Origin: Escherichia coli
GTDB lineage: Bacteria; Pseudomonadota; Gammaproteobacteria; Enterobacterales; Enterobacteriaceae
Strand: one strand, 5' to 3'
DNA length: 64,000 nucleotides
Assembly (NCBI RefSeq): GCF_036507355.1
Contig: NZ_AP027877.1
Part shown: positions 25,644 to 52,806 of the stretch, in pieces
Layout: each line of letters opens with the position of its first letter
Numbering within the stretch: the first letter of the stretch is position 1
Notes under the pieces: model-generated
Told to the model about the DNA's origin: nothing
The model's input: the letters and a program-made list of their open reading frames with translations, nothing else
The model's database searches: none
Made by a program: the position numbers and the translations under genes

Positions 25644-25730
25644 GCCCGGATGGTGGAATCGGTAGACACAAGGGATTTAAAATCCCTCGGCGTTCGCGCT
25701 GTGCGGGTTCAAGTCCCGCTCCGGGTACCA
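25644..25730 (+). tRNA. leuZ: tRNA-Leu (anticodon UAA), integration target of the island
   Basis: GCCCGGATGGTGGAATCGGTAGACACAAGGGATTTAAAATCCCTCGGCG...CCGGGTACCA, long variable arm. Confidence 0.95.
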
Positions 25731-25805
25731 TGGGAAACATCAGAATAATCAAAGCAATAAGCAGTGTCGTGAAACCACCTTCGGGTGGTTTTTTTGTGCA
25801 TGCAA
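25675..25805 (+). repeat. Left direct repeat (attL): 3' half of tRNA-Leu plus downstream terminator
   Basis: About 131 bp repeated with a few mismatches and a 2-bp indel at 51890-52022. Confidence 0.85.
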
Positions 25806-26709: not shown

Positions 26710-26789
26710 TCTTCAATCCTGCCCCGTAATAAAAACACCTTCAGATATATATTATCTCCATGATATCAATCAGATACATGAGGATAATT

Positions 26790-34474: not shown

Positions 34475-35096
34475 TTACTACAGATTTGAAAATATCGGTT
34501 TTGCGTGATTCATCATCTACATGGATAAAGGAAACGAGTTTCCTGCCTGCTTTAATCAGGATACCGCGTTGCGTCTTTTCCACAGACGGGGTAACGTGTG
34601 CAGATAACAGACAATGTTCATGTAAATGAAGAAACTTTTTTGAGGCGTAGCCGCCATGTAATCGGGCTTGAATGTCAAGATACATATCATCAAGAGAACC
34701 GGGTTCTCCTGATTCACTCAATACCGGATAACCCTTCTTATCAAAGAGGTTAAGGATAGATTTACTATCATGTTCGAACAGGGTAACACCGTAAATGTAT
34801 TTCATTCGAAAGGTGAGGGAATCGGTGGTGTAGACCTCCTCCTGACGATTGAAATTTTTGAGACGCCTGGCTAATTCATTAAAAACAGCACGAGCAGTAG
34901 CCGTGTCCTGCAGGGTGTAGGTATAAAGTACGAAGCCATCTGTGCCGATGAGCTTTACTAAGTTGTCCATAATCGTGATAGCGAGAACTAATGCAAAGGA
35001 TAGATATTTTTCATCGTTGTCTACAGCTGTGTTTGCTGCTTCAGGAAGAATGTTCAGTGCATTATTAGCATTATTTGCTGTGTTCTTAGTAACCAT
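34458..35096 (-). CDS. Hypothetical protein (212 aa) co-transcribed upstream of the polymerase
   Basis: Overlaps the polymerase start by 17 nt and the AlpA-like gene stop by 11 nt. Confidence 0.55.
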   Translation of the reverse strand: MVTKNTANNANNALNILPEAANTAVDNDEKYLSFALVLAITIMDNLVKLIGTDGFVLYTYTLQDTATARAVFNELARRLKNFNRQEEVYTTDSLTFRMKYIYGVTLFEHDSKSILNLFDKKGYPVLSESGEPGSLDDMYLDIQARLHGGYASKKFLHLHEHCLLSAHVTPSVEKTQRGILIKAGRKLVSFIHVDDESRKTDIFKSVVNVIKS

Positions 35097-38239: not shown

Positions 38240-39475
38240 TTAAAAGGAAATAAACAGAGCCTTTCGCCGATGAATCAATGTGCTGATTTCCCTCAAATCA
38301 GCCTCAATACTACCAACATCACCAAAGACTTCACCTCTAATCTCACTTCGATTTTTCATGAAATTGGTGCTTAATAAGCTTTCTTTTTTTAATGCCATTA
38401 ATTTTGGTTTTATATCGTTATAGAAATGCTTACGGCTTACCCTGATGCTATGAATCGAGTAGTAAACTGTTTTATACATCAAAAATATAAGTAACTGGCC
38501 GAGAAGATATTCTTTTTCAATGTATTTATATTGAGAGGATTTTTCGCGTTTCGCCAGGTAGAAAACATGAGGTGCGATGATGGTGGGGATAAAATCCAGT
38601 GCTGGAGAGGTTTTGGTTTTTTCTGTTTCTCTTCCGGATTGAAGATGTTGAAGTACAGAGTATACAATGCTTAAAATTATGGCGTTACTTATATTATTAA
38701 TTGCAGTTGGGTAAATATGCAGATTGCTTATCAATTCTGAAAGGCAAAGTAAAACACCAGTGATGTTGGGTTTTCTGCCGGAGATTGTGGTGCTGTTGAA
38801 AATGTGACGATTCTTACGACTTATATTGACAAGTTTATGAGTGCAGAACTCTATATGTTCGACGATTTTATCTTGACTATTTTTAATGTATTTTGAAATG
38901 TTAGTGATCCGGCCATTCAACGTTAGTTCATCAAGCAATATATCATTTTTAATATTGCGAATTTCATCGCAATGTTCACATTGAGAAACTATCTCATGTA
39001 ATACATAACTCGAAGTATTGCGTGACGATGCTGATATGTAATCTAAAATGGAATGCTCGACTTTGATTTTTTGTTTGTATTTTTTAATGCACTGTTTGAT
39101 TGTTTTTTGTAGAGTATTTGAGATGTGTTTTTTATATTCTTTTAGAAAATCTTGCTCTAAAAAGAGTGAGGAGAAGATCAACTGCTGGCGAGATAATTTA
39201 ATCTCAGGCTTGATCAATTTAATCCGAAAAACTCTTCCCTCCAACTCATAGCTGAACATGGAAGATAAGTCATAGTGGGGTGATAAATGTTCGAGTAACG
39301 ACATTCGTGTATTCATTAGCCGCTTGAATTTATGGTCAGCATACATAAGTGTTTTTTTTATTTGCTCATCATAAAGTGGGCCGATAGCGCAGTTGGCAAT
39401 ACTCATTCTATCCGGAGACCTCCAGTCAGCAGGGGAATCACATTGACGGTCATCATTACTATCAAAGGGCATCAA
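38240..39475 (-). CDS. Hypothetical protein (411 aa), AT-rich orphan
   Basis: Long ORF in visibly AT-rich DNA; no motif recognised. Confidence 0.55.
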   Translation of the reverse strand: MMPFDSNDDRQCDSPADWRSPDRMSIANCAIGPLYDEQIKKTLMYADHKFKRLMNTRMSLLEHLSPHYDLSSMFSYELEGRVFRIKLIKPEIKLSRQQLIFSSLFLEQDFLKEYKKHISNTLQKTIKQCIKKYKQKIKVEHSILDYISASSRNTSSYVLHEIVSQCEHCDEIRNIKNDILLDELTLNGRITNISKYIKNSQDKIVEHIEFCTHKLVNISRKNRHIFNSTTISGRKPNITGVLLCLSELISNLHIYPTAINNISNAIILSIVYSVLQHLQSGRETEKTKTSPALDFIPTIIAPHVFYLAKREKSSQYKYIEKEYLLGQLLIFLMYKTVYYSIHSIRVSRKHFYNDIKPKLMALKKESLLSTNFMKNRSEIRGEVFGDVGSIEADLREISTLIHRRKALFISF

Positions 39476-39778
39476 CGTTGCCGATTATGGATGATGTCAG
39501 CTTCACACACCAGTACGGGTGATATATGGATCATCATTACCCCAACGGCAGTTTTACACCATGGCTAATATGGATGCTATCTTACTAAGATAATTGGTTT
39601 TTAGCGAGTGACGAGCCAGGTTGTGTCAGTCTGTCTCATGTCGATATTACGGGGATGATGCAAACCTGAATGCTGCGATATTGGCGTGTCAGGGGAGGCA
39701 TCTTACGGTATCATTTACCGCAATTTTTAAGATGCAAAGCCCTGCATCGCTAGCTTTTTCTTCAGACCAGGATGATTC

Positions 39779-41302
39779 ATGAACGACAAAATCAGTCAGG
39801 ACACGATCAACAAAGCCCTGTGGGCCGCGTGTGATACGTTCCGTGGCACCATCAGTGCTGATACCTATAAAGACTTTATCCTTACCATGCTGTTCCTCAA
39901 GTACATTTCAGATGTCTGGCAGGATCACTACGACGAATATAAAGTGCAATATGGCGATGCGCCGGAACTGATTGAAGCGATGATGGCGAACGAGCGCTTC
40001 GTGTTGCCGAAAAGCGCCAGTTTCTATGCGTTGTACGAGCGACGTCATGAGCCGGGCAACGGTGAGCGTATCGATCAGGCGCTGCATGCGATTGAAGAAG
40101 CCAACGGCACCAAACTGAAAGATGCCGGGAAAAGTGTCTTCCAGGATATTTCGTTTAACACTGACCGTCTGGGCGAAGAAAAACAGAAGAACACCATCCT
40201 GCGTCAGTTGCTGGAAGACTTTGCCGGTGAAGATCTTAACCTGAAGCCAAGCCGTGTCGGTACGCTGGACGTTATCGGTAATGCTTACGAATATCTGATC
40301 AAAAACTTTGCTGCCAGCGGTGGGCAGAAAGCCGGGGAATTCTATACCCCGCCGGAAGTTTCGGACCTGATTGCTGAACTGCTCGATCCGCAACCGGGTG
40401 ATACCATCTGCGATCCGGCCTGTGGTTCGGGTTCATTGTTGATGAAGTGTGGGCGTAAAATTGTCTCCGGGCATGATAGTCGTAACTATGCATTGTTCGG
40501 TCAGGAAGCGATCGGTTCTACGTGGTCGCTGGCGAAAATGAATATGTTCCTGCACGGGGAAGACAACCATAAAATCGAGTGGGGCGATACCATTCGTAAC
40601 CCGAAGCTGCTCGATAAAAATGGCGACCTGATGCTGTTTGATATCGTGACCGCTAACCCACCGTTCAGCCTCGATAAGTGGGGCCATGACGAGGCCGAGA
40701 ACGATAAGTTTGGCCGTTTTCGTCGCGGTGTACCGCCGAAGACTAAAGGAGATTACGCTTTTATCTCGCATATGATCGAAACCCTGAAACCGGGAACTGG
40801 CCGTATGGGCGTAGTTGTGCCACACGGTGTGCTTTTCCGTGGCTCCAGCGAAGGTAAAATTCGCCAGAAACTGATCGACGAAAATTTGCTGGATGCGGTA
40901 ATTGGTCTGCCGGAAAAACTGTTCTACGGTACGGGGATTCCGGCTGCGATTCTGATTTTTAAAAAGCAGAAAGTTGATGACAAGGTGCTGTTTATCGATG
41001 CCAGCCGTGAATTCAAGGCAGGTAAAAACCAGAACCAGCTTAGCGAAGAAAACATTAAGAAAATCGTCAAGACCTACCGTGATGGCGATAACGTCGAGAA
41101 ATACGCCTATCTTGCCAGCCTGAAGGAAATTCAGGACAACGACTATAATCTCAATATCCCGCGCTATGTCGATACCTTTGAAGAAGAGGATGAGATTGAC
41201 CTGCTGGCGGTGCGAGCAGAACGCGAGCAACTGAAGGCGGAATTGGCGAAGCTGGAAACGGAGATGGCTGGATATTTGAAGGAGTTGGGTTATGGCTCGT
41301 GA
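39779..41302 (+). CDS. hsdM: Type I restriction-modification methyltransferase subunit HsdM
   Basis: N6-adenine MTase motifs (DPACGSGS, TANPPFS), 507 aa. Confidence 0.92.
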   Translation: MNDKISQDTINKALWAACDTFRGTISADTYKDFILTMLFLKYISDVWQDHYDEYKVQYGDAPELIEAMMANERFVLPKSASFYALYERRHEPGNGERIDQALHAIEEANGTKLKDAGKSVFQDISFNTDRLGEEKQKNTILRQLLEDFAGEDLNLKPSRVGTLDVIGNAYEYLIKNFAASGGQKAGEFYTPPEVSDLIAELLDPQPGDTICDPACGSGSLLMKCGRKIVSGHDSRNYALFGQEAIGSTWSLAKMNMFLHGEDNHKIEWGDTIRNPKLLDKNGDLMLFDIVTANPPFSLDKWGHDEAENDKFGRFRRGVPPKTKGDYAFISHMIETLKPGTGRMGVVVPHGVLFRGSSEGKIRQKLIDENLLDAVIGLPEKLFYGTGIPAAILIFKKQKVDDKVLFIDASREFKAGKNQNQLSEENIKKIVKTYRDGDNVEKYAYLASLKEIQDNDYNLNIPRYVDTFEEEDEIDLLAVRAEREQLKAELAKLETEMAGYLKELGYGS

Positions 41303-42566
41303 TTCGCTTTACCCAGTGAGCGTTAAAGCTGGAAAACCGATCCTTGGAATGCTACCTACAGGATGGCAAAAGTTATCATTAGAAAAGTGCTTAAATATAG
41401 AGGCAAGAAAGGCATATATACAAGATAATCAAGAGTATGACTTAGTTACAGTAAAGCGCTCCAGAGGTGGCGTAATAAGACGTGAGCATCTTAAAGGAAA
41501 AGATATCTCCGTAAAAAGTCAATTCTATATTAAAGAAGGCGACTTTCTCATATCAAAACGACAAATTGTGCACGGTGCTTGCGGTCTTGTACCTAAAGAA
41601 CTTTCTGGCTCAATTGTATCGAATGAATATTGTGTGCTTACAGGGAAGTCCGGTTTTTATCTTCCTTATATGGAATTTCTATCGGAGTCTCTATATTTCC
41701 AGCAAACCTGCTTCCACTCTAGCATTGGTGTGCACATAGAGAAAATGATTTTTAAGTTAGATAGTTGGTTTAAGTGGCCATTTAATATCCCCCCACTGTC
41801 TGAACAAAAGAGAATCGTTAAAATCCTGTCAACCTGGGATAAGGCGATTTCGGTGACGGAAAAGCTTCTCACCAACAGTCAGCAGCAGAAAAAAGCCCTG
41901 ATGCAGCAATTGCTTACCGGGAAAAAACGCTTGCTGGATGAGAGGGGGGTGAGGTTTAGTGGGGAGTGGAAGAGAGTAAAACTGGGTGCGATAGCCGATA
42001 TGAACAGTGGAGGTACTCCGAAATCAACGGTTGAAGAGTATTATGGCGGGAATATCCCATGGGTATCTATTTCTGATATGACATCTAATGGAAAGTGGAT
42101 TGCTACAACTGAAAAATATCTGACTGAATTAGGATTGAACAGTTCATCCGCAAGAATATATCCAAAAAACTCGGTTCTTTATGCTATGTATGCTTCTATA
42201 GGTGAATGCAGCATTGCTGCTGTAAATTTAACATCTTCGCAGGCAATCTTGGGTATTAGACCAAAAGATTGTTTAAATTATGAGTTTTTATATTTCTATC
42301 TTACATCATTAAAAGAAAAAATAAAACTGCAAGGCCAGCAAGGTACACAGTCCAACCTAAACGCCGGAATGGTTAAAGAGTTTGAACTAGACTTACCCAG
42401 TATAAGAGAACAACAAAAAATCGCCGCCGTCCTGTCCGTCGCCGATGCCGAAATCTCCACGCTGGAGAAAAAACTCGCCTGCCTGAGAGATGAGAAAAAA
42501 GCCCTGATGCAACAGCTACTGACTGGCAAACGTCGTGTTAAGGTCGATGAGGCGGTTGCCGAATGA
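41292..42566 (+). CDS. hsdS: Type I R-M specificity subunit HsdS
   Basis: Two target-recognition domains separated by repeated conserved helices (KKALMQQLLTGKKRL / KKALMQQLLTGKRRV); overlaps hsdM. Confidence 0.9.
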   Translation: MARDSLYPVSVKAGKPILGMLPTGWQKLSLEKCLNIEARKAYIQDNQEYDLVTVKRSRGGVIRREHLKGKDISVKSQFYIKEGDFLISKRQIVHGACGLVPKELSGSIVSNEYCVLTGKSGFYLPYMEFLSESLYFQQTCFHSSIGVHIEKMIFKLDSWFKWPFNIPPLSEQKRIVKILSTWDKAISVTEKLLTNSQQQKKALMQQLLTGKKRLLDERGVRFSGEWKRVKLGAIADMNSGGTPKSTVEEYYGGNIPWVSISDMTSNGKWIATTEKYLTELGLNSSSARIYPKNSVLYAMYASIGECSIAAVNLTSSQAILGIRPKDCLNYEFLYFYLTSLKEKIKLQGQQGTQSNLNAGMVKEFELDLPSIREQQKIAAVLSVADAEISTLEKKLACLRDEKKALMQQLLTGKRRVKVDEAVAE

Positions 42567-43246
42567 AACTGACGAAAAGCGGTCCACTGACTGACCGGGA
42601 AATCGACTGGCTGGAAGAAATATTAATGAAGTATGGAATGGATGATTCTGTACTCTGTTTCTCTGAGCTGGATGGATTGCTGACGGCGATTTTATCAGGT
42701 CCAAATATGGTTTCACCCAATATCTGGCTGAGTGCTATTTGGGGAGGAGGCGATTATCATCCGAAATGGTCATCTGAGAGAGAGATGGAGCGTTTTGTCA
42801 GTCTGTGTTTTCAGCATATGAACGATATCGCTGGTTGCCTTTATGACGCCCCTGAACTGTTTGAGCCGATTTTCAATGAGCGTGAGGTAAAGGGGGAAAA
42901 ATATACCATTGTGGAAGAGTGGTGTTTTGGTTATATGAAAGGAAAGTCACTGGATGACTGGTCTGGTCTTCCCGGTGAGTTACGGCCTTCTCTGGAAGTG
43001 ATCGCTCTTCATGGCGTGGAGAAGAATTTTCCTGTACTTGAGAAAATGACCAGAGAGCAGTTTGAGAAAAGTATTTCCCTTATTAAGCCTGCTGCACTGG
43101 CACTTTATCAGTACTGGTTGTCAGTGAGAATGTCAGAGGCATCATCCCGGCCTGTTCCAGTGAAGGGGGCAGAAAACATGCCCGGGCGAAATGACCCGTG
43201 TCCGTGTGGCAGCGGTAAAAAATTTAAGAAGTGCTGTCTGCATTGA
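42563..43246 (+). CDS. YecA-like UPF0149 protein with C-terminal SEC-C metal-binding motif, nested in the hsd operon
   Basis: Aligns along its length with chromosomal YecA at 52141-52806; ends [20 protein letters not shown]; ATGA overlap with the hsdS stop. Confidence 0.8.
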   Translation: MKLTKSGPLTDREIDWLEEILMKYGMDDSVLCFSELDGLLTAILSGPNMVSPNIWLSAIWGGGDYHPKWSSEREMERFVSLCFQHMNDIAGCLYDAPELFEPIFNEREVKGEKYTIVEEWCFGYMKGKSLDDWSGLPGELRPSLEVIALHGVEKNFPVLEKMTREQFEKSISLIKPAALALYQYWLSVRMSEASSRPVPVKGAENMPGRNDPCPCGSGKKFKKCCLH

Positions 43247-43295
43247 TGAATCTTCATGTGACCAGTAGCGAGTAGCGCCAGAAAGAAAAGGATTA

Positions 43296-46200
43296 ATGAT
43301 GAACCAGACGTACACGCCTAAATTCCAGGAAGAATACAGCGCCAAAATTCCGGCACTGACGTTACTGACCAGCCTCGGCTGGACGTTTTTATCTCCGAAA
43401 CAGATTATGGATTACCGGGGCTATAAACAGGATGAGGTGGTGCTGCGTCCGGTTCTGCGTGAAGAGCTGTCGAAGCGTTCCTTTATGGCGGGTGGCAAAA
43501 CCTGCCAGTTATCGGAAAAAGCACTGGATAACCTGATATCACAGGTCTGTTCTCCGGCGCTGAATGAAGGGCTGCTCAAAGCCAATGAACGGATGTATAA
43601 CCATCTGCTCTACGGTATCGCCGTCACGGAGTTTGTCGATGGCAAGAAGGTGAACCCCACCATTGCGCTGATCGACTGGGAACATCCGGAAAGTAACCAG
43701 TTCCATTTTACCGAAGAATTTACGGTATTGCGGTCAGGCGGTGTCGAAACCCGCAGGCCGGATATTGTGTGTTTTGTGAATGGTATCCCGCTGGCCGTCA
43801 TTGAAGCGAAAAGCCCGGCGGGTCACGGCAAGAAAGGGCCAACCATTGACGAAGGGATATCCCAGAGTATCCGCAATCAGCTCAACGACGAAATCCCGCA
43901 GCTGTTTGCTTACAGCCAGATATTACTGTCGATTAACGGGCATGACGGGCGCTACGGTACCTGTCATACACCAATGAAATTCTGGGCGGCATGGCGCGAA
44001 GAAGATATTACTTACGCGCAGATGTATGCGCTGCGCAACCATAAGTTATCGACTGAACAAATTCATGCGTTGTTTGATGATCGTCCTTCAGTCGATCTCA
44101 AATGGTATCAACAGTTAATCGATGGGGGGGAACTGGCAGTCAGCGGGCAGGATAAGCTGCTCATCAGTCTGCTTTCACCGGAACGTCTGCTGGAGATGAC
44201 CCGCTTCTTCACCCTGTTTGATAAAAAAACCGGAAAAATTGTTGCCCGCTATCAGCAGGTGTTCGGTATTAAAAGACTGCTGGAACGCATCAGTACCCGC
44301 AGACCAGACGGGGGCAGGGAAGGTGGGGTGATCTGGCATACCACGGGGTCAGGTAAATCTTACACCATGGTATTCCTCAGCAAGGCGCTGATTCTTCATG
44401 ACAGCCTGAAGCAGTGTCGTATTGTGGTGGTGACGGACCGCGTGGACCTTGAAGGGCAGCTCAGCGGCACTTTTGTCTCTGGTGGCGAACTGGCAGGGAA
44501 GGATGATAAGGCCAAAGCGATGGCAACCTCAGGTCAGAAGCTGGCACAGCAGATTGGCTCTGGTAAAGAACGTATAATCTTTACCCTTATCCAGAAATTT
44601 AACTCAGCGACAAAATTGCCTGAATGCGTCAACACCAGCCCCGACATCATCGTTCTGATTGATGAAGGACACCGTAGCCAGGGTGGTGAGAACCATGTGC
44701 GAATGAAACTGGCACTGCCGAACGCCGCCTTTGTGGCATTTACTGGTACGCCATTGCTAAAAGAAGATAAGACCACCAATAAATTCGGGCCGATTGTCCA
44801 CGCTTATACCATGCAGCGAGCGGTAGAAGATAAAGCCGTTACACCTTTGCTGTATGAAGAACGTATTCCCGACCTTGAGGTTAACGATCGGGCAATAGAT
44901 GCCTGGTTTGATCGTATTACCGATGGGTTAAGCGAAGCGCAAAAAGCCGACCTTAAGCGTAAATATGCCCGTAAAGGTGAGGTTTATAGTGCAGATGATC
45001 GCATCCGTCTGATCGCACTCGATATCGCCACGCACTTCTCGAAGAATATTGATGAGGGGCTGAAAGGCCAGCTTGCCTGCGACAGCAAGATTTCCGCCAT
45101 CAAATATAAAAAGTATCTTGATGAAGCCGGGTTGTTTGAGTCAGCAGTAGTTATCAGCCCGCCGGATACCCGGGAAGGGAATACCGAAGTGGATGAAAGC
45201 AAACTGCCGGAAGTGACGAAATGGTGGAAGGATAATGTCGGCACGCAGGATGAGTCTGTGTATACCCGTAATATCATCAGTCGTTTCGATACCGATGAGA
45301 AGCTCAAATTGCTGATAGTCGTTGATAAACTGCTCACCGGGTTTGATGAGCCGAAGAATACCGTGCTGTATATCGACAAGCCGCTTAAGTCCCACAACCT
45401 TATCCAGGCGATTGCGCGGGTGAACCGACTGCATCCACTAAAAAAGTTCGGTCTGCTGATTGATTATCGCGGTATTCTGGCTGAGCTGGACACGACTATC
45501 GGCAAATATCAGGACCTCGCCTCCCGAACTCAGGGCGGATACGATATCAAAGATATTGACGGGCTGTACAGCGCCATGAGCTCTGAATACAAGCGCCTGC
45601 CGCATCTGTATAACCAGCTGTGGGCCATATTTGCCGGTGTTAAAAACAAAAATGATACTGAGCAGTTACGTGCGGTACTGGTGCCTAAAATGGAAGAACG
45701 TGACGGAGAGATGGTCGATATCCATCAGAAAACCCGTGATGATTTCTTCGAGGCGTTAACGGCCTTTGCCGGATGCCTGAAAGTGGCACTGCAGTCCGCT
45801 ACCTTCTTCACCGACAAGAGCTTTACGGAACAAGACCGAAATCTCTATAAAGAAACCGTAAAACAGATGTCCAGCCTGCGCCAGTGGGCGATGCAGGTAA
45901 GTGGAGAGCAGGTCAATTATGACGACTACGCTGAGCAGGTGAAAAAACTGCTGGATAAGCATGTCACCGGCGTTGAGGTTCGTGAACCGGATGGCGTGTA
46001 TGAAGTCGGTAAAATGGGCAAGAGCGAAAAGCCCGAAGAGTGGGACAACAATAAAACCCGCAATGAAACCGACATCATTAAAACCCGCGTGACGAAGATG
46101 ATTGAGCAGGAATTGCGTGATGACCCGTATGCTCAGGAGGCATTTTCAAAACTCCTGCGTATGGCTATCGAAGAGGCTGAAAAACTGTTTGACCATCCGC

Positions 46201-46583
46201 TGAAACAGTACCTTTTGTTCCGTGAATTTGAAGAACAGGTTGAAGCCCGTAAGCTCAGCGATATCCCGGATGCACTGGCGGTAAACAAGCATGCTCAGGC
46301 GTATTACGGTGTATTTAAAAAAGAGCTACCTGAGGTTTTTGCGGTAAACGACGTTCAGGTGCAGGATAAGTGGACCAAGCTGGCTTTTGAAGTGGACAAC
46401 ATTATCGTCAAAGCGGTGGCAGAAAACTCCCTGAACCCCCAGGACATTGAGAAAGTCGTTAAGACAAGTCTGCTACCACTGCTGTTTACGGCCTGCCGGG
46501 AAATTGGTGCCGGAATGAATCAGGTTAACCGTATTGTGGAAACCATCATCCAGATACTGCGCGTTGGTTTGATGAAATCATGA
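43296..46583 (+). CDS. hsdR: Type I restriction endonuclease subunit HsdR
   Basis: 1095 aa; Walker A TGSGKSYT and DEAH-like box DEGHRS. Confidence 0.92.
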   Translation: MMNQTYTPKFQEEYSAKIPALTLLTSLGWTFLSPKQIMDYRGYKQDEVVLRPVLREELSKRSFMAGGKTCQLSEKALDNLISQVCSPALNEGLLKANERMYNHLLYGIAVTEFVDGKKVNPTIALIDWEHPESNQFHFTEEFTVLRSGGVETRRPDIVCFVNGIPLAVIEAKSPAGHGKKGPTIDEGISQSIRNQLNDEIPQLFAYSQILLSINGHDGRYGTCHTPMKFWAAWREEDITYAQMYALRNHKLSTEQIHALFDDRPSVDLKWYQQLIDGGELAVSGQDKLLISLLSPERLLEMTRFFTLFDKKTGKIVARYQQVFGIKRLLERISTRRPDGGREGGVIWHTTGSGKSYTMVFLSKALILHDSLKQCRIVVVTDRVDLEGQLSGTFVSGGELAGKDDKAKAMATSGQKLAQQIGSGKERIIFTLIQKFNSATKLPECVNTSPDIIVLIDEGHRSQGGENHVRMKLALPNAAFVAFTGTPLLKEDKTTNKFGPIVHAYTMQRAVEDKAVTPLLYEERIPDLEVNDRAIDAWFDRITDGLSEAQKADLKRKYARKGEVYSADDRIRLIALDIATHFSKNIDEGLKGQLACDSKISAIKYKKYLDEAGLFESAVVISPPDTREGNTEVDESKLPEVTKWWKDNVGTQDESVYTRNIISRFDTDEKLKLLIVVDKLLTGFDEPKNTVLYIDKPLKSHNLIQAIARVNRLHPLKKFGLLIDYRGILAELDTTIGKYQDLASRTQGGYDIKDIDGLYSAMSSEYKRLPHLYNQLWAIFAGVKNKNDTEQLRAVLVPKMEERDGEMVDIHQKTRDDFFEALTAFAGCLKVALQSATFFTDKSFTEQDRNLYKETVKQMSSLRQWAMQVSGEQVNYDDYAEQVKKLLDKHVTGVEVREPDGVYEVGKMGKSEKPEEWDNNKTRNETDIIKTRVTKMIEQELRDDPYAQEAFSKLLRMAIEEAEKLFDHPLKQYLLFREFEEQVEARKLSDIPDALAVNKHAQAYYGVFKKELPEVFAVNDVQVQDKWTKLAFEVDNIIVKAVAENSLNPQDIEKVVKTSLLPLLFTACREIGAGMNQVNRIVETIIQILRVGLMKS

Positions 46584-47335
46584 GTGAAAAAGAATCGCCA
46601 TCAATGAAAGCGTTACGCATTGTCTATGGTGATGATGTCATCACCGTACAGTGTGTTCCGCGTCAGGTCGTAAAGGGCAGGGTGCTCATCAAGGTTTATC
46701 CGGACTGCCGGGTTGTGGCCTCTGTACCGCCTGAAACACCGGAGCACGAGGTATTGTCTGCGCTGAAAAAAAGAGGGCGCTGGATATACCAGCAACTGCG
46801 TGATTTCAGGGAGCAACAGACACACATTGTTCCGCGTCAGTATGTCAGCGGAGAAAGCCATTATTATCTCGGTAAGCAATATCAGTTGAAAGTGACAGAA
46901 GACGCTACTGTGCCGCAACGAGTGAAAATGTTGCGTGGGCGTCTGGAAGTGACTGTCAGACACAAATCGGCAGAAAAGATTAAAGCCTTGCTGGCTGAAT
47001 GGTATCGGGAACGTGCCAGAGATGTTTTTCAGCGCAGGCTTGATTTACTGATTCCGCAGACCCTTTGGGTCAGTGAGCGTCCTCCGATACGTCTGCGGGC
47101 GATGCAAACGCAATGGGGCAACTGTTCAGCAAAAGGCTGTCTGACCCTGAATCCATGGCTGGTTAAGGCATCCTCAGAATGTATCGATTATGTTTTGCTA
47201 CATGAGTTATGCCATGTGGCTGAGCACAACCACAGCGAGGAGTTTTACCGTCTGATGGGGCAGGTTATGCCTGGGTGGGAAAAGGTCAAGAAACGACTGG
47301 ATGGGATGGCTGGGATGTTGTTGGCTGATATGTAA
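46580..47335 (+). CDS. HExxH zinc metallopeptidase (M48/YgjP-like) after hsdR
   Basis: HELCH motif; ATGA overlap with the hsdR stop. Confidence 0.7.
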   Translation: MSEKESPSMKALRIVYGDDVITVQCVPRQVVKGRVLIKVYPDCRVVASVPPETPEHEVLSALKKRGRWIYQQLRDFREQQTHIVPRQYVSGESHYYLGKQYQLKVTEDATVPQRVKMLRGRLEVTVRHKSAEKIKALLAEWYRERARDVFQRRLDLLIPQTLWVSERPPIRLRAMQTQWGNCSAKGCLTLNPWLVKASSECIDYVLLHELCHVAEHNHSEEFYRLMGQVMPGWEKVKKRLDGMAGMLLADM

Positions 47336-47393
47336 CTTATCAATATGAGTTCTTAAGGGTTTGGTCAGTCTCGTTAATGTAGGGAGTATAATA

Positions 47394-49232
47394 ATGAGTA
47401 AGTTAGATAATAAAATTGAAGCACGCCATCGTAATTTGTTTGATGTTCTAAATGCGCAAAAATATACCGTTGATTACTTTCAGCGCGAGTATAGCTGGGG
47501 TGAGAAACATATTGAAGAGTTGGTTACAGACTTAACATCTGCGTTTCTCAATGAATACACCGTCGGTGATTCTCGGGAGCAGGGTGAAAACTACAATAAT
47601 TATTACTTAGGACCATTTGTTGTGAGTAGTAAAGATGGGAAACGGAGTATTATTGATGGTCAGCAACGACTGACTTCATTAACTTTATTTCTAATTTACC
47701 TCCATAACCTTCAGAAAGAACTTAAATATGAAGAGAAAATAGAATCAATGATTTTCTCCGAGTTACGTGGCAGCAAATCATTCAATATAGTAGTTGAAGA
47801 CAGAATACCTTGCATGGAAGCATTGTTTAATTTTGGTAGCTATAGTTTAGTTGATGGGGATGATGAGTCAACCCATAACATGGTGGAGAGATATCAGAAT
47901 ATCACAGATGCTTTTCCTGATGAATTAAAAGGTCAGGCTTTTCCTTTTTTTATCGACTGGCTTAAGTATAACGTTATTATGGTTGAGATAGTTGCCTATT
48001 CAGATGAAAACGCATATACCATCTTTGAGACTATGAATGACCGAGGATTAAATCTTACTCCGTCCGAAATGCTTAAAGGTTTTTTACTTTCACGCTTTCA
48101 TCAGGGAGATAAACGCCAAAAGGTAAATGAACTCTGGAAAAAAGCGATGATGGATTTAAAAAACTATGATAAAGATGAAGACCAACGTTTTTTCCAGTCA
48201 TGGTTGCGTGCTCAATATGCTGATACAATACGCCCGGGTAAAGCTGGTTCAAAAAATGAAGACTTTGAAAAAATAGGTACGCGTTTTCATAGCTGGGTTA
48301 GAGATAATCTTCAGGCGGTGGGATTGGACCCAGATAATGGTGAGACATTCGAACGATTTATACAAAAAAACTTTTTGTTTTATTTGAATGCCTATACACA
48401 AATACTGAATGCTGAGAGAGCATTAACGCACCAACTGGAATATGTATTTTATATCCACCATTGGGGTATTGCACCTACTTTAAGTTTCCCTTTGATGTTG
48501 GCTCCATTAAATGTAGGTGACAGTCCTGATGCTGTGATAGCCAAAATAAACCTGGTGGCGCGCTATATTGAAACATTTGTTGTTCGTCGTTCTGTTAATT
48601 TCCGAAAATTCTCTGCCAGTTCTATTCGTTACACAATGTACAGTCTTGTTAAAGAAATTCGTGGTAAAAGTATTGAAGAATTAAAAGATTTGTTATCTAA
48701 GAAGTTATCCGAAATGCCAGATACTTTTGCAGGAATGGAAGAGTTTCGTCTCCATGGTCAAAACTATCGTTTTGTGAAGTTTTTGCTTTCTCGTATAACT
48801 GCGTGGGTTGAGCAGCAAGCCGGAATGAGTACAACCTTCATTACATATTATCAGCCAGAACACGGTAAGCCATTTGAAGTCGAGCATATTTGGGCCGATA
48901 AATATGAACGTTACTCTGATGAGTTTGAACAAGAGCACGAATTTAACAATTACAGAAATCGCTTAGGTGATTTGGTTTTATTACCTAGAGGCTCAAACCA
49001 GTCATATGGTGATTTGTGTTACGATCAAAAGCAACCTCATTACATCAAAGAGAATCTCCTGGCTAAATCGTTATGCCCATTGGCATATATGAATAACCCT
49101 AATTTCAATCAGTTGAGAAATGTATTCGGATTGCCTTTCAAACCACATGATTCATTTAAAAAACAAGATGTCGATGAACGACAGTCTTTGTATAAAATAA
49201 TTTGTGAGAATATTTGGGACCATAATTTATAG
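47394..49232 (+). CDS. GmrSD-like DUF262/DUF1524 nuclease (type IV restriction-like)
   Basis: N-terminal DGQQR hallmark (IIDGQQRLTSL) and C-terminal His-Me-finger-like FEVEHIWAD; GGGAG RBS before ATG 47394. Confidence 0.7.
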   Translation: MSKLDNKIEARHRNLFDVLNAQKYTVDYFQREYSWGEKHIEELVTDLTSAFLNEYTVGDSREQGENYNNYYLGPFVVSSKDGKRSIIDGQQRLTSLTLFLIYLHNLQKELKYEEKIESMIFSELRGSKSFNIVVEDRIPCMEALFNFGSYSLVDGDDESTHNMVERYQNITDAFPDELKGQAFPFFIDWLKYNVIMVEIVAYSDENAYTIFETMNDRGLNLTPSEMLKGFLLSRFHQGDKRQKVNELWKKAMMDLKNYDKDEDQRFFQSWLRAQYADTIRPGKAGSKNEDFEKIGTRFHSWVRDNLQAVGLDPDNGETFERFIQKNFLFYLNAYTQILNAERALTHQLEYVFYIHHWGIAPTLSFPLMLAPLNVGDSPDAVIAKINLVARYIETFVVRRSVNFRKFSASSIRYTMYSLVKEIRGKSIEELKDLLSKKLSEMPDTFAGMEEFRLHGQNYRFVKFLLSRITAWVEQQAGMSTTFITYYQPEHGKPFEVEHIWADKYERYSDEFEQEHEFNNYRNRLGDLVLLPRGSNQSYGDLCYDQKQPHYIKENLLAKSLCPLAYMNNPNFNQLRNVFGLPFKPHDSFKKQDVDERQSLYKIICENIWDHNL

Positions 49233-49290
49233 CAAAGTTAGGGTGTTAATTAATCTGTAATGGCATCATGATTTTTAAAAGGAGGTTGAA

Positions 49291-50418
49291 TTGCGTTCTG
49301 AAACGTTTTTTGTCAAATTTATTGAACAACTGAAAGGTATTTCGGTTGAGGATGATGTTGAATTCAATTTTTTTGAATTGGGTGGTTCCGGATATCTCGA
49401 AAATCCAACTACGGATTTGATGGCTTTGTTTATGGGAGCCCAGAAAATGGTGCCGCCATGGTTGCTCAAAGCATTGCTATGTTGCCTGGATGATTCCCTC
49501 GATGTTGATGAAATTGATTTCACTTCTCTGGAGCTAATGAGAGAGGCCCGAACAGAAGATGGGAAATATATTGATATTCTTATCAGACATGATGAATTCA
49601 TTATAGGTATTGAGCATAAAGTTCTGGCTGATACATATAATCCTTTTCCCAGCTATGTAAGTCTCATTGATAGTTACGGCGGCAACAATCAAAAACTATT
49701 TCGCTGTATATTAAAGCCTGACGGTAACAGCGCTAAAGGCGTAGACGGTTGGCAACTGATCAATTATTCACTGCTGCTGGAAACCGCCATTCGACGTCTG
49801 GGGTTGGAGATGATGAATCAAGAGTTCAGCAAGTGGACTGTTTTTTATCAGGAGTTTTTAAGTCATCTTAAAAAATTGAGTGAGGTTAGTATGGATAAGG
49901 TATCTGATAAAAATGTGGAGTTTGTCACTGAAAATTTCTCAGCTTTGATAAAATCGGTTCAACTGCTGGAAATGTACCAAAATGCTATCACCGAGGAAGC
50001 TAAATCGGTTGTCTCAGAGGTATTGCCTGATATTCATATTGCAACAGGTATTAATAACTGGAAGGGTTACTATAAAGCAATTCATCTGATGCCGGGATGC
50101 TGGGGGCAAGGTAAAACAGGAATTACGTTAGTTTATCGCCCTTCAGAGGATGGACGAGATGAAGCTGAGTTCTACGTATATGGATGGATACATTCAGATG
50201 ATTACCCTGAAGTTAATGCACTAAAAGAAGAAATAAGAGTTGCTTTAAGTGCTGGAGATTTCATTCCAACAGCTAGCCCTGAGGACTATGAAGTATCAAT
50301 TACTGGGAAGGGGAAAGTGCTTGAACTGAGTTTTTGGGGGAATACGAGAAGCAAAAAAGATGCACTGGTTCTTCTTAAGGATATGACTAAGTGGATGGAC
50401 TCAAAAATAAGAACATAA
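49291..50418 (+). CDS. PD-(D/E)xK-type nuclease-fold protein (TTG start)
   Basis: Candidate catalytic core ...GKYIDILIRHDEFIIGIEHKV (D...ExK); AAGGAGG RBS. Confidence 0.55.
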   Translation: MRSETFFVKFIEQLKGISVEDDVEFNFFELGGSGYLENPTTDLMALFMGAQKMVPPWLLKALLCCLDDSLDVDEIDFTSLELMREARTEDGKYIDILIRHDEFIIGIEHKVLADTYNPFPSYVSLIDSYGGNNQKLFRCILKPDGNSAKGVDGWQLINYSLLLETAIRRLGLEMMNQEFSKWTVFYQEFLSHLKKLSEVSMDKVSDKNVEFVTENFSALIKSVQLLEMYQNAITEEAKSVVSEVLPDIHIATGINNWKGYYKAIHLMPGCWGQGKTGITLVYRPSEDGRDEAEFYVYGWIHSDDYPEVNALKEEIRVALSAGDFIPTASPEDYEVSITGKGKVLELSFWGNTRSKKDALVLLKDMTKWMDSKIRT

Positions 50419-50522
50419 AGTAATATGACTGAGTGATGACGATCTTTTTTAAATTGTGGATTATTAGGCTGGTAATTGAAGCGCCGAATAGACAGATATT
50501 GGAATAAAAGGAGAATATTCAA

Positions 50523-51704
50523 ATGATTTATCAGTGTGATACTTGCAGTAGAACGACTTTTGAGGTTAATTGTCCCTGGTGTAGTGGAGTTTCGCCTGTA
50601 AAAACGTCTGCATGGGGTTCAGCATCATCGACCGCACAAGCAATAGGCATACAACGTATGACACCATTGAATCCATCGTTTTATCCCGAATTTCAGTATC
50701 GTTCAAAGGGTGTTCTAAAAGATCTATTTGGGAAAAAGAAAGAGCAAACTCAGCTTAATCAATTGCTTGAAAATGTTCTCAAAAAATACTCCAGTTTAAA
50801 AGATCCATATTTTACTAACTTCATTTACACTTCCAGATTCTCACATAATAATAAATCGGAAGCAGATTACTCAACAGATAATGGTACATACTCCGAATTA
50901 CAACTTTTCCGTGAGGTGTTGGTCAGAAAAGGGTTCAATGAGCTTGAGCAGTTACCTGAGCTATTAGATAAATTACTCCTTACCACGTCATTTAACGCTC
51001 TTTATTATGGTTTCGCTAAGGAAGTTAAACGGCATATTAAATCCACACTTACTGAATCCTTGAAGTCATGGATTGAGGAAGCGGGTACCACTTTTAGGGC
51101 AGATCTTTCATTGTTTCTATTCTATATATGGAGCAATAAAATAGAGTTCTCATCAGTAGAGTTCAATGAAAAAGCGGAGGCTACGCCTGGTGTTCCTTTA
51201 GTTTCATTTGATGAAGTTAAAAAATACTTAGCTGTGTGCGAACATATTTATTTTGATATTCTGGTTGATAGATTAGCTACACGGCTCGAACATTTTAACC
51301 CTAACAAATTCGTCACCATGTATTTAGTTGATGCAATGGACGGTTTCCAGTTTGAAGATTTCCTTGTGGAAGTATTCCAGACTATGGGCTATGACGTCAA
51401 AGAAACCAAGAGAACGCAAGATCAGGGGGCAGATCTCTTCGTCACTCGATTTGGTAAGGATATGGTTATTCAGGCGAAAAATTATTCTGGTTCTGTAGGT
51501 AACTCGGCGGTGCAGCAGGTGATCTCTGCTAAAACATTCTATGGTTGTGATGAGGCGATGGTTGTGACTAATTCCTACTTCACACGCTCTGCCAAAGAAT
51601 TAGCTGAATCAGCCTTGGTACGTTTGATCGACAGGGATGAACTGCAAAAGTATCTGGATGATTACAATCAGAAGATAATTGAAGATTTCCAGTCAAACTC
51701 GTAA
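50523..51704 (+). CDS. Zinc-ribbon protein with C-terminal Mrr-like restriction endonuclease domain
   Basis: N-terminal CDTCS...CPWC; C-terminal ...GADLFVTRFGKDMVIQAKNYSGSVG... resembles the Mrr catalytic domain. Confidence 0.6.
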   Translation: MIYQCDTCSRTTFEVNCPWCSGVSPVKTSAWGSASSTAQAIGIQRMTPLNPSFYPEFQYRSKGVLKDLFGKKKEQTQLNQLLENVLKKYSSLKDPYFTNFIYTSRFSHNNKSEADYSTDNGTYSELQLFREVLVRKGFNELEQLPELLDKLLLTTSFNALYYGFAKEVKRHIKSTLTESLKSWIEEAGTTFRADLSLFLFYIWSNKIEFSSVEFNEKAEATPGVPLVSFDEVKKYLAVCEHIYFDILVDRLATRLEHFNPNKFVTMYLVDAMDGFQFEDFLVEVFQTMGYDVKETKRTQDQGADLFVTRFGKDMVIQAKNYSGSVGNSAVQQVISAKTFYGCDEAMVVTNSYFTRSAKELAESALVRLIDRDELQKYLDDYNQKIIEDFQSNS

Positions 51705-51889
51705 CTTTGCAGTCATATAGATATAGCAAAGGACAGGTAGGCCTCCGTGAGAGGGGGACTTACCTGTGCAGATTCTGTGCTCAAAGTTATCCAAGTCTAT
51801 CTATTTACTGCCAATTACAGTAAAATGAGTAAGCAATTACAGCAAAGTTTCGCAATGCACTGCTATGTAACTCATTGATCCTGCGTAGA

Positions 51890-52022
51890 ATTTAAAATCC
51901 CTCGGCGTTCGCGCTGTGCGGGTTCAAGTCCCGCTCCGGGTACCATGGGAAAGATAAGAATAAAATCAAAGCAATAAGCAGTGTCGTGAAACCACCTTCG
52001 GGTGGTTTTTTTGTGCCTGCAA
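51890..52022 (+). repeat. Right direct repeat (attR): copy of tRNA-Leu 3' half plus terminator
   Basis: Matches 25675-25805 with a few mismatches and a 2-bp indel; begins inside the anticodon arm, so no complete tRNA here. Confidence 0.85.
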
Positions 52023-52140
52023 CTTGTCGTTACACCCTCCTTAATTTTTAATCACCGGCAAAGCCACTCAAAAAGTATCTCTGATACGGACCGGCATGTA
52101 AGATAGGTGTTGGCGAGTTGAGATCCACAAGGAAAAGCGT

Positions 52141-52806
52141 ATGAAAACGGGACCGTTAAACGAAAGTGAGTTGGAATGGCTGGACGATATTCTGACCAAA
52201 TACAACACTGACCACGCCATCCTTGATGTGGCGGAGCTGGACGGTTTATTGACGGCGGTGTTGAGTTCTCCGCAAGAGATTGAACCGGCACAGTGGCTGG
52301 TTGCCGTGTGGGGTGGGGCTGACTATGTGCCGCGCTGGGCGTCAGAGAAAGAGATGACGCGCTTTATGAACCTGGCTTTTCAACATATGGCCGATACCGC
52401 AGAGCGTCTGAACGAATTCCCGGAGCAGTTTGAGCCGTTATTCGGCTTGCGAGAAGTTGATGGCAGCGAGCTGACGATTGTTGAGGAGTGGTGCTTTGGC
52501 TATATGCGGGGCGTGGCACTTTCTGACTGGTCAACATTGCCCGATTCGTTAAAACCAGCGCTGGAGGCGATAGCGCTGCACGGTACTGAGGAAAACTTCG
52601 AGCGGGTAGAGAAGATGTCGCCAGAAGCGTTTGAAGAGAGCGTAGATGCCATTCGACTGGCGGCGCTTGATCTACATGCGTACTGGATGGCGCATCCGCA
52701 GGAAAAAGCTGTTCAGCAACCGATCATAGCAGAAGAGAAACCGGGGCGTAACGATCCTTGCCCGTGCGGTAGTGGTAAGAAATTTAAGCAGTGCTGCCTG
52801 CATTAA
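52141..52806 (+). CDS. yecA: UPF0149 SEC-C-motif protein YecA
   Basis: 221 aa ending [20 protein letters not shown]; leuZ-adjacent position restored once the island is ignored. Confidence 0.9.

What the first reader, a model, noticed from the sequence alone, without database searches (positions are those of the whole stretch)
47394..49232. GmrSD-like DUF262/DUF1524 nuclease immediately after the type I system
The N-terminal DGQQR motif (IIDGQQRLTSL) and a C-terminal His-Me-finger-like region are typical of GmrSD/BrxU/SspE-type enzymes that cleave modified phage DNA. It stacks a modification-dependent nuclease on a modification-based R-M system.
Basis: partly seen in the sequence, partly recalled or inferred. 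Interest (0 to 1): 0.45.

Follow-up and report, generated by a model that had tools for sequence, protein, structure and literature searches.

The report
GmrSD-family restriction nuclease beside type I system

Summary
Observation confirmed. Window 47394-49232 (+) is an intact 612-aa ORF with a GGGAG ribosome-binding site. It passes Pfam gathering scores for GmrSD_N/DUF262 (4.4e-33) and GmrSD_C/DUF1524 (6.6e-8). The QR, DGQQR and FxxxN motifs and the His-Me finger residues (E497-H498, N522, N535) are present and conserved in 58 homologues of 32-76% identity. An AlphaFold model (pLDDT 91.8) significantly matches only DndI, SspE and BrxU among solved structures.

The window is E. coli chromosome. 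The gene lies in a 26-kb island integrated at tRNA-Leu (leuZ). It belongs to a low-GC cassette (gmrSD, PDDEXK_4, Mrr-like) appended to hsdM-hsdS-yecA-like-hsdR-ygjP.

Orthologues sit after ygjP (Citrobacter, Yersinia), between hsdS and hsdR (Marinobacter), inside a CRISPR operon (Aggregatibacter), or alone. The gene is therefore an autonomous single-gene module that is often embedded in other defence operons.

The DUF262/type I link is already published (RloF, Machnicka 2015, TgvAB, HEC-06). This E. coli protein family is listed as cluster CLS_012 in Silas et al. 2025.

The most likely function is an NTPase-gated, modification-dependent (type IV) nuclease. Its substrate is untested, and its closest solved relatives are phosphorothioate sensors. 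Interest is low.

The parts
47394..49232 (+). GmrSD-family gene (612 aa; exact protein = BED22042.1 / WP_338388298.1, annotated 'DUF262 domain-containing protein')
   Evidence: ORF and translation; Pfam domains; exact-sequence look-up
47382..47386 (+). Shine-Dalgarno-like GGGAG, 7 nt before the ATG
   Evidence: Sequence read directly
47442..48086 (+). N-terminal DUF262 / GmrSD_N (ParB-like NTPase) domain, residues 17-231
   Evidence: Pfam PF03235, E 4.4e-33
47481..47486 (+). QR motif (Q30 R31), invariant in 58/58 homologues
47655..47669 (+). DGQQR motif (residues 88-92), the nucleotide-hydrolysis motif of the family
   Evidence: D88, G89 and Q91 are 58/58; Q90 is 56/58; R92 is 57/58
48024..48038 (+). 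FxxxN motif (F211...N215, FETMN), invariant
48087..48845 (+). All-helical linker region, residues 232-484
   Evidence: DSSP of the AlphaFold model
48846..49067 (+). C-terminal DUF1524 / GmrSD_C His-Me finger nuclease domain, residues 485-558
   Evidence: Pfam PF07510, E 6.6e-8. Beta 494-498, beta 527-531 and helix 534-538 in the model
48882..48887 (+). E497-H498, predicted catalytic acid/histidine pair at the end of beta-1
   Evidence: E 56/58 and H 57/58 conserved. The equivalent EH pair is essential in HEC-06 (bioRxiv 10.1101/2024.01.29.577857)
48957..48959 (+). N522, middle Asn of the H...N...N motif
   Evidence: 46/58 conserved
48996..48998 (+). N535, predicted metal-binding Asn in the helix of the beta-beta-alpha finger
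   Evidence: 57/58 conserved; lies in helix 534-538 of the model
39779..41302 (+). hsdM (context: type I R-M methyltransferase)
   Evidence: Pfam N6_Mtase 4e-107 and HsdM_N; PADLOC MTase_I
41292..42566 (+). hsdS (context)
   Evidence: Pfam Methylase_S; PADLOC Specificity_I 1e-213
42563..43246 (+). YecA-family UPF0149/SEC-C gene embedded between hsdS and hsdR (PADLOC candidate PDC-S12)
43296..46583 (+). hsdR (context)
   Evidence: Pfam HSDR_N and SWI2_SNF2; PADLOC REase_I 1363 bits
46580..47335 (+). YgjP-like M48 metallopeptidase gene, overlaps hsdR by 4 nt
   Evidence: Pfam YgjP-like 3e-58
49291..50418 (+). PD-(D/E)XK nuclease family gene (PDDEXK_4; PADLOC candidate PDC-S26), same low-GC cassette
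50523..51704 (+). Mrr_cat-domain restriction endonuclease gene, same low-GC cassette. It follows the GmrSD-like gene directly in Citrobacter and Yersinia
25675..25805 (+). Left direct repeat (attL): 3' half of tRNA-Leu(taa) leuZ plus downstream terminator
51890..52022 (+). Right direct repeat (attR) that closes the ~26-kb island just before chromosomal yecA

Best explanation
The gene encodes an autonomous, single-polypeptide restriction nuclease of the GmrSD (DUF262-linker-DUF1524) superfamily.

**Proposed mechanism (inferred from characterised relatives)**
- The N-terminal ParB-like DUF262 domain binds and hydrolyses NTP through its QR, DGQQR and FxxxN motifs and acts as the DNA-modification sensor and switch.
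- It gates the C-terminal His-Me finger (E497-H498...N522...N535), which cuts the DNA.
- The most probable target is hypermodified phage DNA of the T-even type (hmC or glucosyl-hmC). That would make it a type IV, modification-dependent enzyme.
- It would then cover phages whose base modifications let them escape the neighbouring type I R-M system.

**Shown versus inferred**
- Shown: gene integrity, domains, motifs, fold, genomic context and modularity.
- Inferred: NTPase activity, nuclease activity, modification dependence and the identity of the substrate.

**Genomic setting**
- The gene is part of a low-GC cassette (gmrSD, PDDEXK_4, Mrr-like) added downstream of hsdMSR-ygjP in a leuZ-integrated defence island.
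- It is probably read through from the type I operon.
For: **Domains and motifs**
- Both Pfam domains score above their gathering cut-offs.
- In 58 homologues of 32-76% identity the motif residues are invariant or nearly so: Q30, R31, D88, G89, Q91, F211 and N215 are invariant; R92, H498 and N535 are 57/58; E497 is 56/58.

**Fold**
- The AlphaFold model has pLDDT 91.8 and shows a beta-beta-alpha finger at residues 494-538.
- The only Foldseek PDB hits at E<=0.001 are DndI (7e-13), SspE and BrxU. A profile search of PDB sequences gives the same set.

**Closest defence family**
- The best PADLOC model is HEC-06 (4e-41).
- HEC-06 defence needs its DGQQR and EH residues (bioRxiv 10.1101/2024.01.29.577857).
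- HEC-06 blocks T4. A distant homologue restricts T4 but not the unmodified-cytosine T4-GT7 (PMC12366544).

**Autonomy**
- No conserved partner gene exists. The flanking genes are ygjP/PDDEXK_4 (E. coli), ygjP/mrr (Citrobacter, Yersinia), hsdS/hsdR (Marinobacter and metagenomes), cas4/cas1 (Aggregatibacter) or unrelated genes.
- Of 35 family loci from other species, 14 have some type I-like gene within 10 kb, always on the same strand; 21 have none.

**Cassette nature**
- GC content is 36.5% against 50% for hsdM, hsdR and ygjP.
- The similarity break with other E. coli genomes falls at the end of ygjP.

**Transcription**
- Neither a promoter-like nor a terminator-like site was found in the 58-bp ygjP-gmrSD gap.
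Against: - No activity data for this protein were readable. It belongs to cluster CLS_012 of Silas et al. 2025. Representatives of 15 groups drawn from the 20 commonest clusters were tested on T-even phages, but the per-cluster outcome is only in a figure image.
- By sequence and fold the nearest solved relatives are DndI and SspE, which are not modification-dependent cutters. BrxU is much more distant (profile E 4e-4).
- The match to HEC-06 models is only 139 bits, and its best stretch covers the N-terminal half only. This is a sister family, so substrate specificity cannot be transferred with confidence.
- The promoter/terminator scan is a weak consensus tool; its counts did not exceed shuffled controls.
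Confidence: 0.7

Rival explanations
1. It works with SspE/DndI-like logic. The nuclease nicks DNA that lacks a host mark and is released or restrained when its DUF262 domain senses that mark. The mark could be a phosphorothioate made elsewhere in the genome, or the m6A written by the adjacent HsdMS.
For: - DndI (9jfl) and SspE are the closest solved relatives by profile (7e-23 and 5e-17, against 4e-4 for BrxU) and by fold.
- PADLOC 'Orf5' and SspE models also score.
- Orthologues in Marinobacter and in metagenomes sit between hsdS and hsdR with 4-nt overlaps on both sides.
Against: - No dnd or ssp genes appear in the island or in any of the neighbourhoods read.
- The 76% identical Aggregatibacter orthologue lies in a CRISPR-Cas operon with no methyltransferase nearby.
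- 21 of 35 family loci have no type I-like gene within 10 kb.
- In EC590 the cassette persists after the type I system was deleted, although the gene is 5'-truncated there.
Confidence: 0.1
2. It is a functional accessory of the type I enzyme, not a stand-alone system. It could be an extra nuclease or regulator that needs HsdR or HsdM to act.
For: - The hsdMSR-ygjP-gmrSD order is conserved across E. coli, Citrobacter and Yersinia at 90-97% protein identity.
- It is embedded inside the operon in Marinobacter.
- The gene is co-oriented with the type I genes, and no terminator-like site lies between ygjP and gmrSD.
Against: - About 530 E. coli genomes have the same type I + ygjP block without this gene.
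- The family occurs in CRISPR loci and alone.
- The related embedded enzyme BrxU (GmrSD of ECOR21) restricts T-even phages when cloned alone, and inactivating the surrounding BREX system did not affect that defence (PMC12373910). HEC-06 gave defence when cloned without the Hma system that surrounds it (bioRxiv 10.1101/2024.01.29.577857).
Confidence: 0.07
3. It is a silent or decaying passenger in this strain, or it serves inter-element conflict (against plasmids or islands) and not phage defence.
For: - The locus is plastic in E. coli. One strain has a 131-aa remnant and another an IS1-truncated copy.
- Many 472-474-aa entries, at least some labelled 'partial', exist in the databases.
- In Silas et al. 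only some of the synthesised GmrSD groups showed activity against T-even phages.
Against: - The copy in the window is full length with every catalytic residue intact.
- Orthologues keep 75-97% identity across distant gammaproteobacteria, which argues for purifying selection.
Confidence: 0.1

Closest known systems
HEC-06 (GmrSD-like single-gene defence; Payne et al. 2024 bioRxiv 10.1101/2024.01.29.577857; PADLOC PDLC04154-04157)
   Same: - It is the best-scoring defence-database family (4e-41).
- It has the same DUF262-linker-DUF1524 architecture.
- It carries the same DGQQR and E-H catalytic motifs, which are essential for HEC-06 defence.
- It is a single gene found embedded in larger defence operons.
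   Different: - The match is only 139 bits, and the best stretch covers the N-terminal ~266 residues.
- HEC-06 models are about 560 aa, against 612 aa here.
- The tested HEC-06 has EHICP, against EHIWA here.
- HEC-06 was defined inside Hma systems, not type I R-M.
- This protein is best treated as a sister family.
DndI (PDB 9JFL; PMC11662687)
   Same: - It is the closest solved structure (Foldseek 7e-13, TM ~0.5; profile E 7e-23).
- It has similar length (596 aa), the DGQQR NTPase motif and a C-terminal HNH-type finger.
   Different: - Identity is only about 14%.
- DndI works with IscS-DndBCDE and is released from phosphorothioate-marked self DNA.
- No dnd genes lie near this gene or its orthologues.
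SspE (PDB 6JIV, 7DRS)
   Same: It belongs to the same superfamily and is the second-best solved relative.
   Different: - SspE is 771 aa and is coupled to SspABCD phosphorothioation.
- It is a nickase stimulated by the host mark.
- No ssp genes are present here.
BrxU / GmrSD of ECOR21 (PDB 7P9K) and EcoCT/Eco94 GmrSD
   Same: - These are single-chain DUF262+DUF1524 type IV enzymes of Enterobacteria, embedded in or beside other defence systems.
- They share the functional logic proposed here.
   Different: - Sequence similarity is very weak (profile E 4e-4, N-terminal ~90 residues only; PADLOC HEC-05 1e-10).
- BrxU lies inside BREX, not next to type I R-M.
TgvAB (V. cholerae VPI-2; PMC11411939) and GmrS1/GmrSD2 of ECOR17 (PMC12373910)
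   Same: - TgvAB is a GmrSD-like type IV restriction system physically nested in a type I R-M operon, and it complements that system against hypermodified phages.
- Orthologues of the window gene occupy the same hsdS-hsdR slot.
   Different: - Both are obligate two-gene systems with a DUF262-only partner.
- No such partner lies beside this gene in any context examined.
RloF (R-linked ORF F of Campylobacter type I loci; cited in PMC4619093)
   Same: It is a DUF262 protein located between hsdS and hsdR, and it is the historical precedent for this linkage.
   Different: No sequence comparison was made here, and RloF function was never established.

Membership tests
GmrSD superfamily (DUF262 + DUF1524) | N-terminal DUF262/GmrSD_N domain above the Pfam gathering score | tested here: met
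   PF03235: 115.5 bits against a cut-off of 33.2, residues 17-231
GmrSD superfamily (DUF262 + DUF1524) | QR, DGQQR and FxxxN motifs of the NTPase domain | tested here: met
   Q30-R31, D88-R92 and F211...N215 are present and invariant or nearly invariant in 58 homologues
GmrSD superfamily (DUF262 + DUF1524) | C-terminal DUF1524 His-Me finger with an H...N...H/N motif on a beta-beta-alpha fold | tested here: met
   PF07510: 33 bits against a cut-off of 23. H498 57/58, N522 46/58, N535 57/58. Beta 494-498, beta 527-531 and helix 534-538 in the model
GmrSD superfamily (DUF262 + DUF1524) | Helical linker and overall fold like solved members | tested here: met
   Model pLDDT 91.8. All ten Foldseek PDB hits at E<=0.001 are DndI, SspE or BrxU
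Type IV (modification-dependent) restriction enzyme | Cleaves modified but not unmodified DNA | not testable with these tools
   Inferred only from relatives (HEC-06, BrxU, TgvAB, GmrSD). The outcome for cluster CLS_012 in PMC12373910 is not readable from the text
Type IV (modification-dependent) restriction enzyme | No cognate methyltransferase required | tested here: inconclusive
   Orthologues occur without any nearby methyltransferase, but in the window an hsdM is 6 kb upstream
HEC-06 | Full-length match to the HEC-06 profile | tested here: inconclusive
   It is the best PADLOC family (4e-41), but at 139 bits, in 2-3 stretches, with the best stretch covering 1-266 of 558
HEC-06 | Embedded in an Hma system | tested here: not met
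   The neighbours are type I R-M, ygjP and PDDEXK_4
SspE / DndI phosphorothioate-sensing nickases | Genetic linkage to ssp or dnd modification genes | tested here: not met
   None were found among the island ORFs scanned with Pfam and PADLOC or in the orthologue neighbourhoods
SspE / DndI phosphorothioate-sensing nickases | Sequence or fold similarity | tested here: met
   They are the closest solved relatives, but at only 13-15% identity
TgvAB-type two-gene systems | Adjacent DUF262-only partner gene | tested here: not met
   No second DUF262 gene flanks it in the window or next to orthologues of 75% identity or more
Type I R-M-embedded gene (rlo-type slot between hsdS and hsdR) | Located inside the hsd operon | tested here: not met
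   In the window it lies downstream of hsdR-ygjP, and the internal slot holds a YecA-family gene. The feature is met by the 75% identical orthologues L003-L005

The most novel reading that the evidence does not exclude
This clade (CLS_012-like) may have been recruited as a second restriction arm that reads the host's type I methylation. It is closer to the self-mark sensors DndI and SspE than to BrxU, and in some genomes it is translationally coupled between hsdS and hsdR. On this reading it would be restrained by m6A-marked self DNA and would nick unmarked DNA, as SspE does with phosphorothioate. That would be the first GmrSD-family enzyme coupled to base methylation and not to a backbone modification.
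Probability: 0.05. Interest if true: 0.75.

Novelty: new member of a known kind. Interest (0 to 1): 0.2.

Why it matters
The result adds little new knowledge. It confirms that this E. coli leuZ island layers a type I R-M system with three further nuclease genes: a GmrSD-like gene, a PDDEXK_4 gene and an Mrr-like gene. This is the familiar 'defence island' pattern, in which enzymes that attack modified DNA complement enzymes that attack unmodified DNA.

The practical value lies in annotation. 'DUF262 domain-containing protein' can be upgraded to 'GmrSD-family putative type IV restriction endonuclease'. It also matters for phage-therapy host-range prediction, because 178 of 5426 complete E. coli genomes carry the gene.

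The substrate specificity of this sub-family remains an open, testable question.

Tried and rejected
- **NCBIfam:** no model matches the protein.
- **Single-sequence PDB search:** it found only the N-terminal half of DndI. A 58-sequence profile was needed to reach SspE, BrxU and both domains.
- **Experimental outcome for cluster CLS_012 in Silas et al. 2025:** I looked in the main text, the supplementary PDF and Dataset 6. Cluster membership of WP_075699494.1 was found, but the activity data are only in figure images. A full-text search for 'CLS_012' found nothing relevant.
- **PADLOC label 'Orf5':** its meaning could not be traced; it is absent from the DndI paper.
- **Promoter/terminator scan of 39000-52300:** promoter-like counts did not exceed shuffled controls. 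Nothing was found in the ygjP-gmrSD gap, so co-transcription is only suggested.
- **Other island ORFs:** PADLOC and Pfam scans found no dnd, ssp or other recognised system.
- **Rfam on 25000-53000:** only the three tRNAs.
- **Upstream TTG start at 47361:** considered and rejected. It has no ribosome-binding site, and annotators and orthologues use the ATG.
- **Obligate two-gene system (TgvAB-like):** considered and rejected. No DUF262-only partner is present.
- **Phage origin:** the family is essentially absent from 50,697 phage records.
Full report
**1. The observation**

Window 47394-49232 (+) is one uninterrupted ORF of 612 codons ending in TAG. The mechanical ORF list begins at an upstream TTG (47361). 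The ATG at 47394 is preceded by GGGAG at 47382-47386, and RefSeq uses the same ATG in a 99.9% identical copy. No ORF of 80 aa or more lies on the opposite strand within the gene.

Both domain calls pass their curated thresholds:
- GmrSD_N/DUF262: E 4.4e-33, 115.5 bits against a cut-off of 33.2, residues 17-231.
- GmrSD_C/DUF1524: E 6.6e-8, 33 bits against a cut-off of 23, residues 485-558.

One correction applies: a YgjP-like metallopeptidase gene (46580-47335) lies between hsdR and this gene.

**2. The protein**

An exhaustive HMMER search of 1.84 billion cluster representatives found 541 clusters at E<=1e-30, most of them aligned over the full length. I aligned 58 members of 32-76% identity. 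Conservation of the key residues:

| Residue(s) | Conservation |
|---|---|
| Q30, R31, W35, D88, G89, Q91, F211, N215, R217, G218 | 58/58 |
| R92, H498, N535 | 57/58 |
| Q90, E497 | 56/58 |
| N522 | 46/58 |

These are the QR, DGQQR and FxxxN motifs of the DUF262 NTPase and the H...N...N motif of the DUF1524 His-Me finger described for the family (PMC4619093; PMC11411939).

An AlphaFold2 model built on this alignment has mean pLDDT 91.8. It shows an N-terminal alpha/beta domain, a long all-helical linker, and a beta(494-498)-beta(527-531)-alpha(534-538) finger. H498 sits at the end of beta-1 and N535 in the helix.

Foldseek against the PDB returns ten hits at E<=0.001, all from the same superfamily: DndI 9jfl (7e-13), SspE 7drr/7drs/6jiv/7dri, and BrxU 7p9k/7p9m. 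A profile search of PDB sequences gives DndI 7e-23, an 818-aa DUF262 protein (20yv) 2.5e-22, SspE 5e-17 and BrxU 4e-4. Among defence-system models the best is HEC-06 (4e-41), followed by 'Orf5', SspE and HEC-05/BrxU. NCBIfam has no model for the protein.

**3. Where it is**

The window is E. coli chromosome. The gene lies in a ~26-kb island bounded by a 131/133-bp direct repeat, 25675-25805 and 51890-52022. The repeat consists of the 3' half of tRNA-Leu(taa) leuZ plus its terminator. An integrase gene lies next to the left repeat, and chromosomal yecA lies just outside the right one.

The co-oriented block is:

hsdM - hsdS - YecA-family gene (PADLOC candidate PDC-S12) - hsdR - ygjP - GmrSD-like gene - PDDEXK_4 gene (PDC-S26) - Mrr_cat gene

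The last three genes have 36.5-39.4% GC, against 50% for hsdM, hsdR and ygjP. A megablast of the whole block shows about 700 complete E. coli genomes with hsdM-to-ygjP, and the similarity stops exactly at the end of ygjP. Only 178 of 5426 genomes carry the GmrSD-like gene. The three nuclease genes are therefore a separable cassette added to the type I system.

The locus is plastic. In strain 64EVA the gene is reduced to a 131-aa remnant. In EC590 an IS1/tet(B) insertion removed the type I system and clipped the 5' end of the gene.

**4. Context of relatives**

- Citrobacter freundii (96-97% identity) and Yersinia enterocolitica (90%) have hsdM-hsdS-(variable slot)-hsdR-ygjP-gmrSD-mrr, without the PDDEXK_4 gene.
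- Marinobacter and two metagenomic contigs (75%) have the gene between hsdS and hsdR, with 4-nt overlaps on both sides.
- Aggregatibacter (76%) has it between cas4 and cas1 of a type I-C CRISPR-Cas operon.
- More distant members sit beside integrases, another DUF262-HNH gene, or genes without annotation.
- Of 35 family loci from other species, 14 have an HsdM-, HsdS- or HsdR-like gene within 10 kb, always on the same strand. Seven have two or more subunits, and 21 have none.
- No neighbour is conserved across these contexts, and no dnd or ssp genes were seen.

I conclude that it is an autonomous single-gene module that is frequently nested in or appended to other defence operons.

**5. Mechanism**

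Characterised relatives support the following model. The DUF262 domain binds and hydrolyses NTP and senses DNA modification. It controls the DUF1524 His-Me nuclease.

- Mutating the DGQQR or the catalytic acid/His pair abolishes defence in BrxU, TgvB, HEC-06 and DndI (PMC11411939; bioRxiv 10.1101/2024.01.29.577857; PMC11662687).
- HEC-06 is the nearest defence family. It blocks T4, and a distant homologue restricts T4 but not cytosine-containing T4-GT7 (PMC12366544).

I therefore favour a type IV, modification-dependent nuclease that complements the type I system (confidence 0.7). Domains, motifs, fold and modularity are shown. NTPase activity, cleavage and substrate are inferred.

The main rival is the SspE/DndI logic, in which the enzyme is restrained by a host mark and attacks unmarked DNA. 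That rival is suggested by the closer similarity to those proteins. It is weakened by the absence of dnd or ssp genes and by occurrences without any nearby methyltransferase. Dependence on the type I enzyme is unlikely, given the many genomes that have one without the other.

**6. Comparison with the literature**

The linkage of DUF262 proteins to type I R-M loci is long known:
- RloF in Campylobacter, and type I domains as the most enriched neighbours of GmrSD homologues (PMC4619093).
- TgvAB, nested in the V. cholerae VPI-2 type I operon (PMC11411939).
- A type I + Mrr + GmrSD-family island in Marinomonas (PMC12455610).

The exact protein is in NCBI as BED22042.1 / WP_338388298.1, 'DUF262 domain-containing protein'. 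The near-identical WP_075699494.1 is a member of cluster CLS_012 in Supplementary Dataset 6 of Silas et al. 2025. That study synthesised representatives of 15 groups drawn from the 20 commonest enterobacterial GmrSD clusters and tested them on T-even phages. I could not read which groups were active.

**7. Verdict**

The functional reading is the most likely one but remains untested. The wording about SspE is imprecise. This is a new, uncharacterised member (a sister family to HEC-06) of a well-known kind, in a well-known genomic arrangement. Interest is 0.2.

Noticed in passing
window 42563-43246 (+) and 52141-52806 (+): A YecA-family (UPF0149 + SEC-C) gene is embedded between hsdS and hsdR, with 4-nt overlap to hsdS. 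It matches PADLOC candidate PDC-S12 (2e-99) and is 57% identical to the chromosomal yecA that lies just outside the island. Why a paralogue of a housekeeping gene sits in the variable slot of a type I operon is unexplained. Citrobacter has nothing in that slot, and Yersinia has a 99-aa ORF.
   Followed up: partly
window 25675-25805 and 51890-52022: A 131/133-bp direct repeat (63 bp exact) consists of the 3' half of tRNA-Leu(taa) leuZ plus its terminator. It delimits a ~26-kb genomic island. The island holds an integrase (26760-27989), a second integrase (35437-36564, - strand) and an IS1 transposase (30849-31244).
   Followed up: yes
window 49291-50418 (+): A PD-(D/E)XK nuclease gene (PDDEXK_4; PADLOC candidate PDC-S26, 1e-50) lies between the GmrSD-like and Mrr-like genes in E. 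coli. It is absent at that position in Citrobacter and Yersinia. It is an untested defence candidate.
   Followed up: partly
window 50523-51704 (+): A 393-aa protein has a C-terminal Mrr_cat domain (7e-30) and an unassigned N-terminal ~260 residues. It stays adjacent to the GmrSD-like gene in E. coli, Citrobacter and Yersinia (89-92% identity). It is possibly a second type IV enzyme.
   Followed up: partly
window 31811-34474 (-), 34458-35096 (-), 36707-37837 (-), 38240-39475 (-): Four sizeable island ORFs (887, 212, 376 and 411 aa) have no Pfam or PADLOC hit. The 887-aa and 212-aa ORFs overlap like an operon. The region is low in GC (35-43%). These may be uncharacterised cargo or defence genes.
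   Followed up: partly
window 46580-47335 (+): A YgjP-like M48 metallopeptidase gene overlaps the hsdR stop codon by 4 nt. It travels with this type I system in about 700 E. coli genomes and in Citrobacter, Yersinia and Marinobacter. Its role in type I R-M is not established.
   Followed up: no
L002 10001-11845 (Aggregatibacter actinomycetemcomitans): A 76% identical orthologue is inserted between cas4 and cas1 of a type I-C CRISPR-Cas operon. This is an example of a GmrSD-like gene nested in a CRISPR adaptation module.
   Followed up: no
L088 (E. coli EC590) and L089 (E. coli 64EVA): These show decay variants of the locus. In EC590 an IS1-flanked tet(B) segment replaced the type I system and clipped the 5' end of the GmrSD-like gene. 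In 64EVA a 131-aa remnant replaces the gene, and an anti-phage dCTP deaminase gene follows the cassette.
   Followed up: partly
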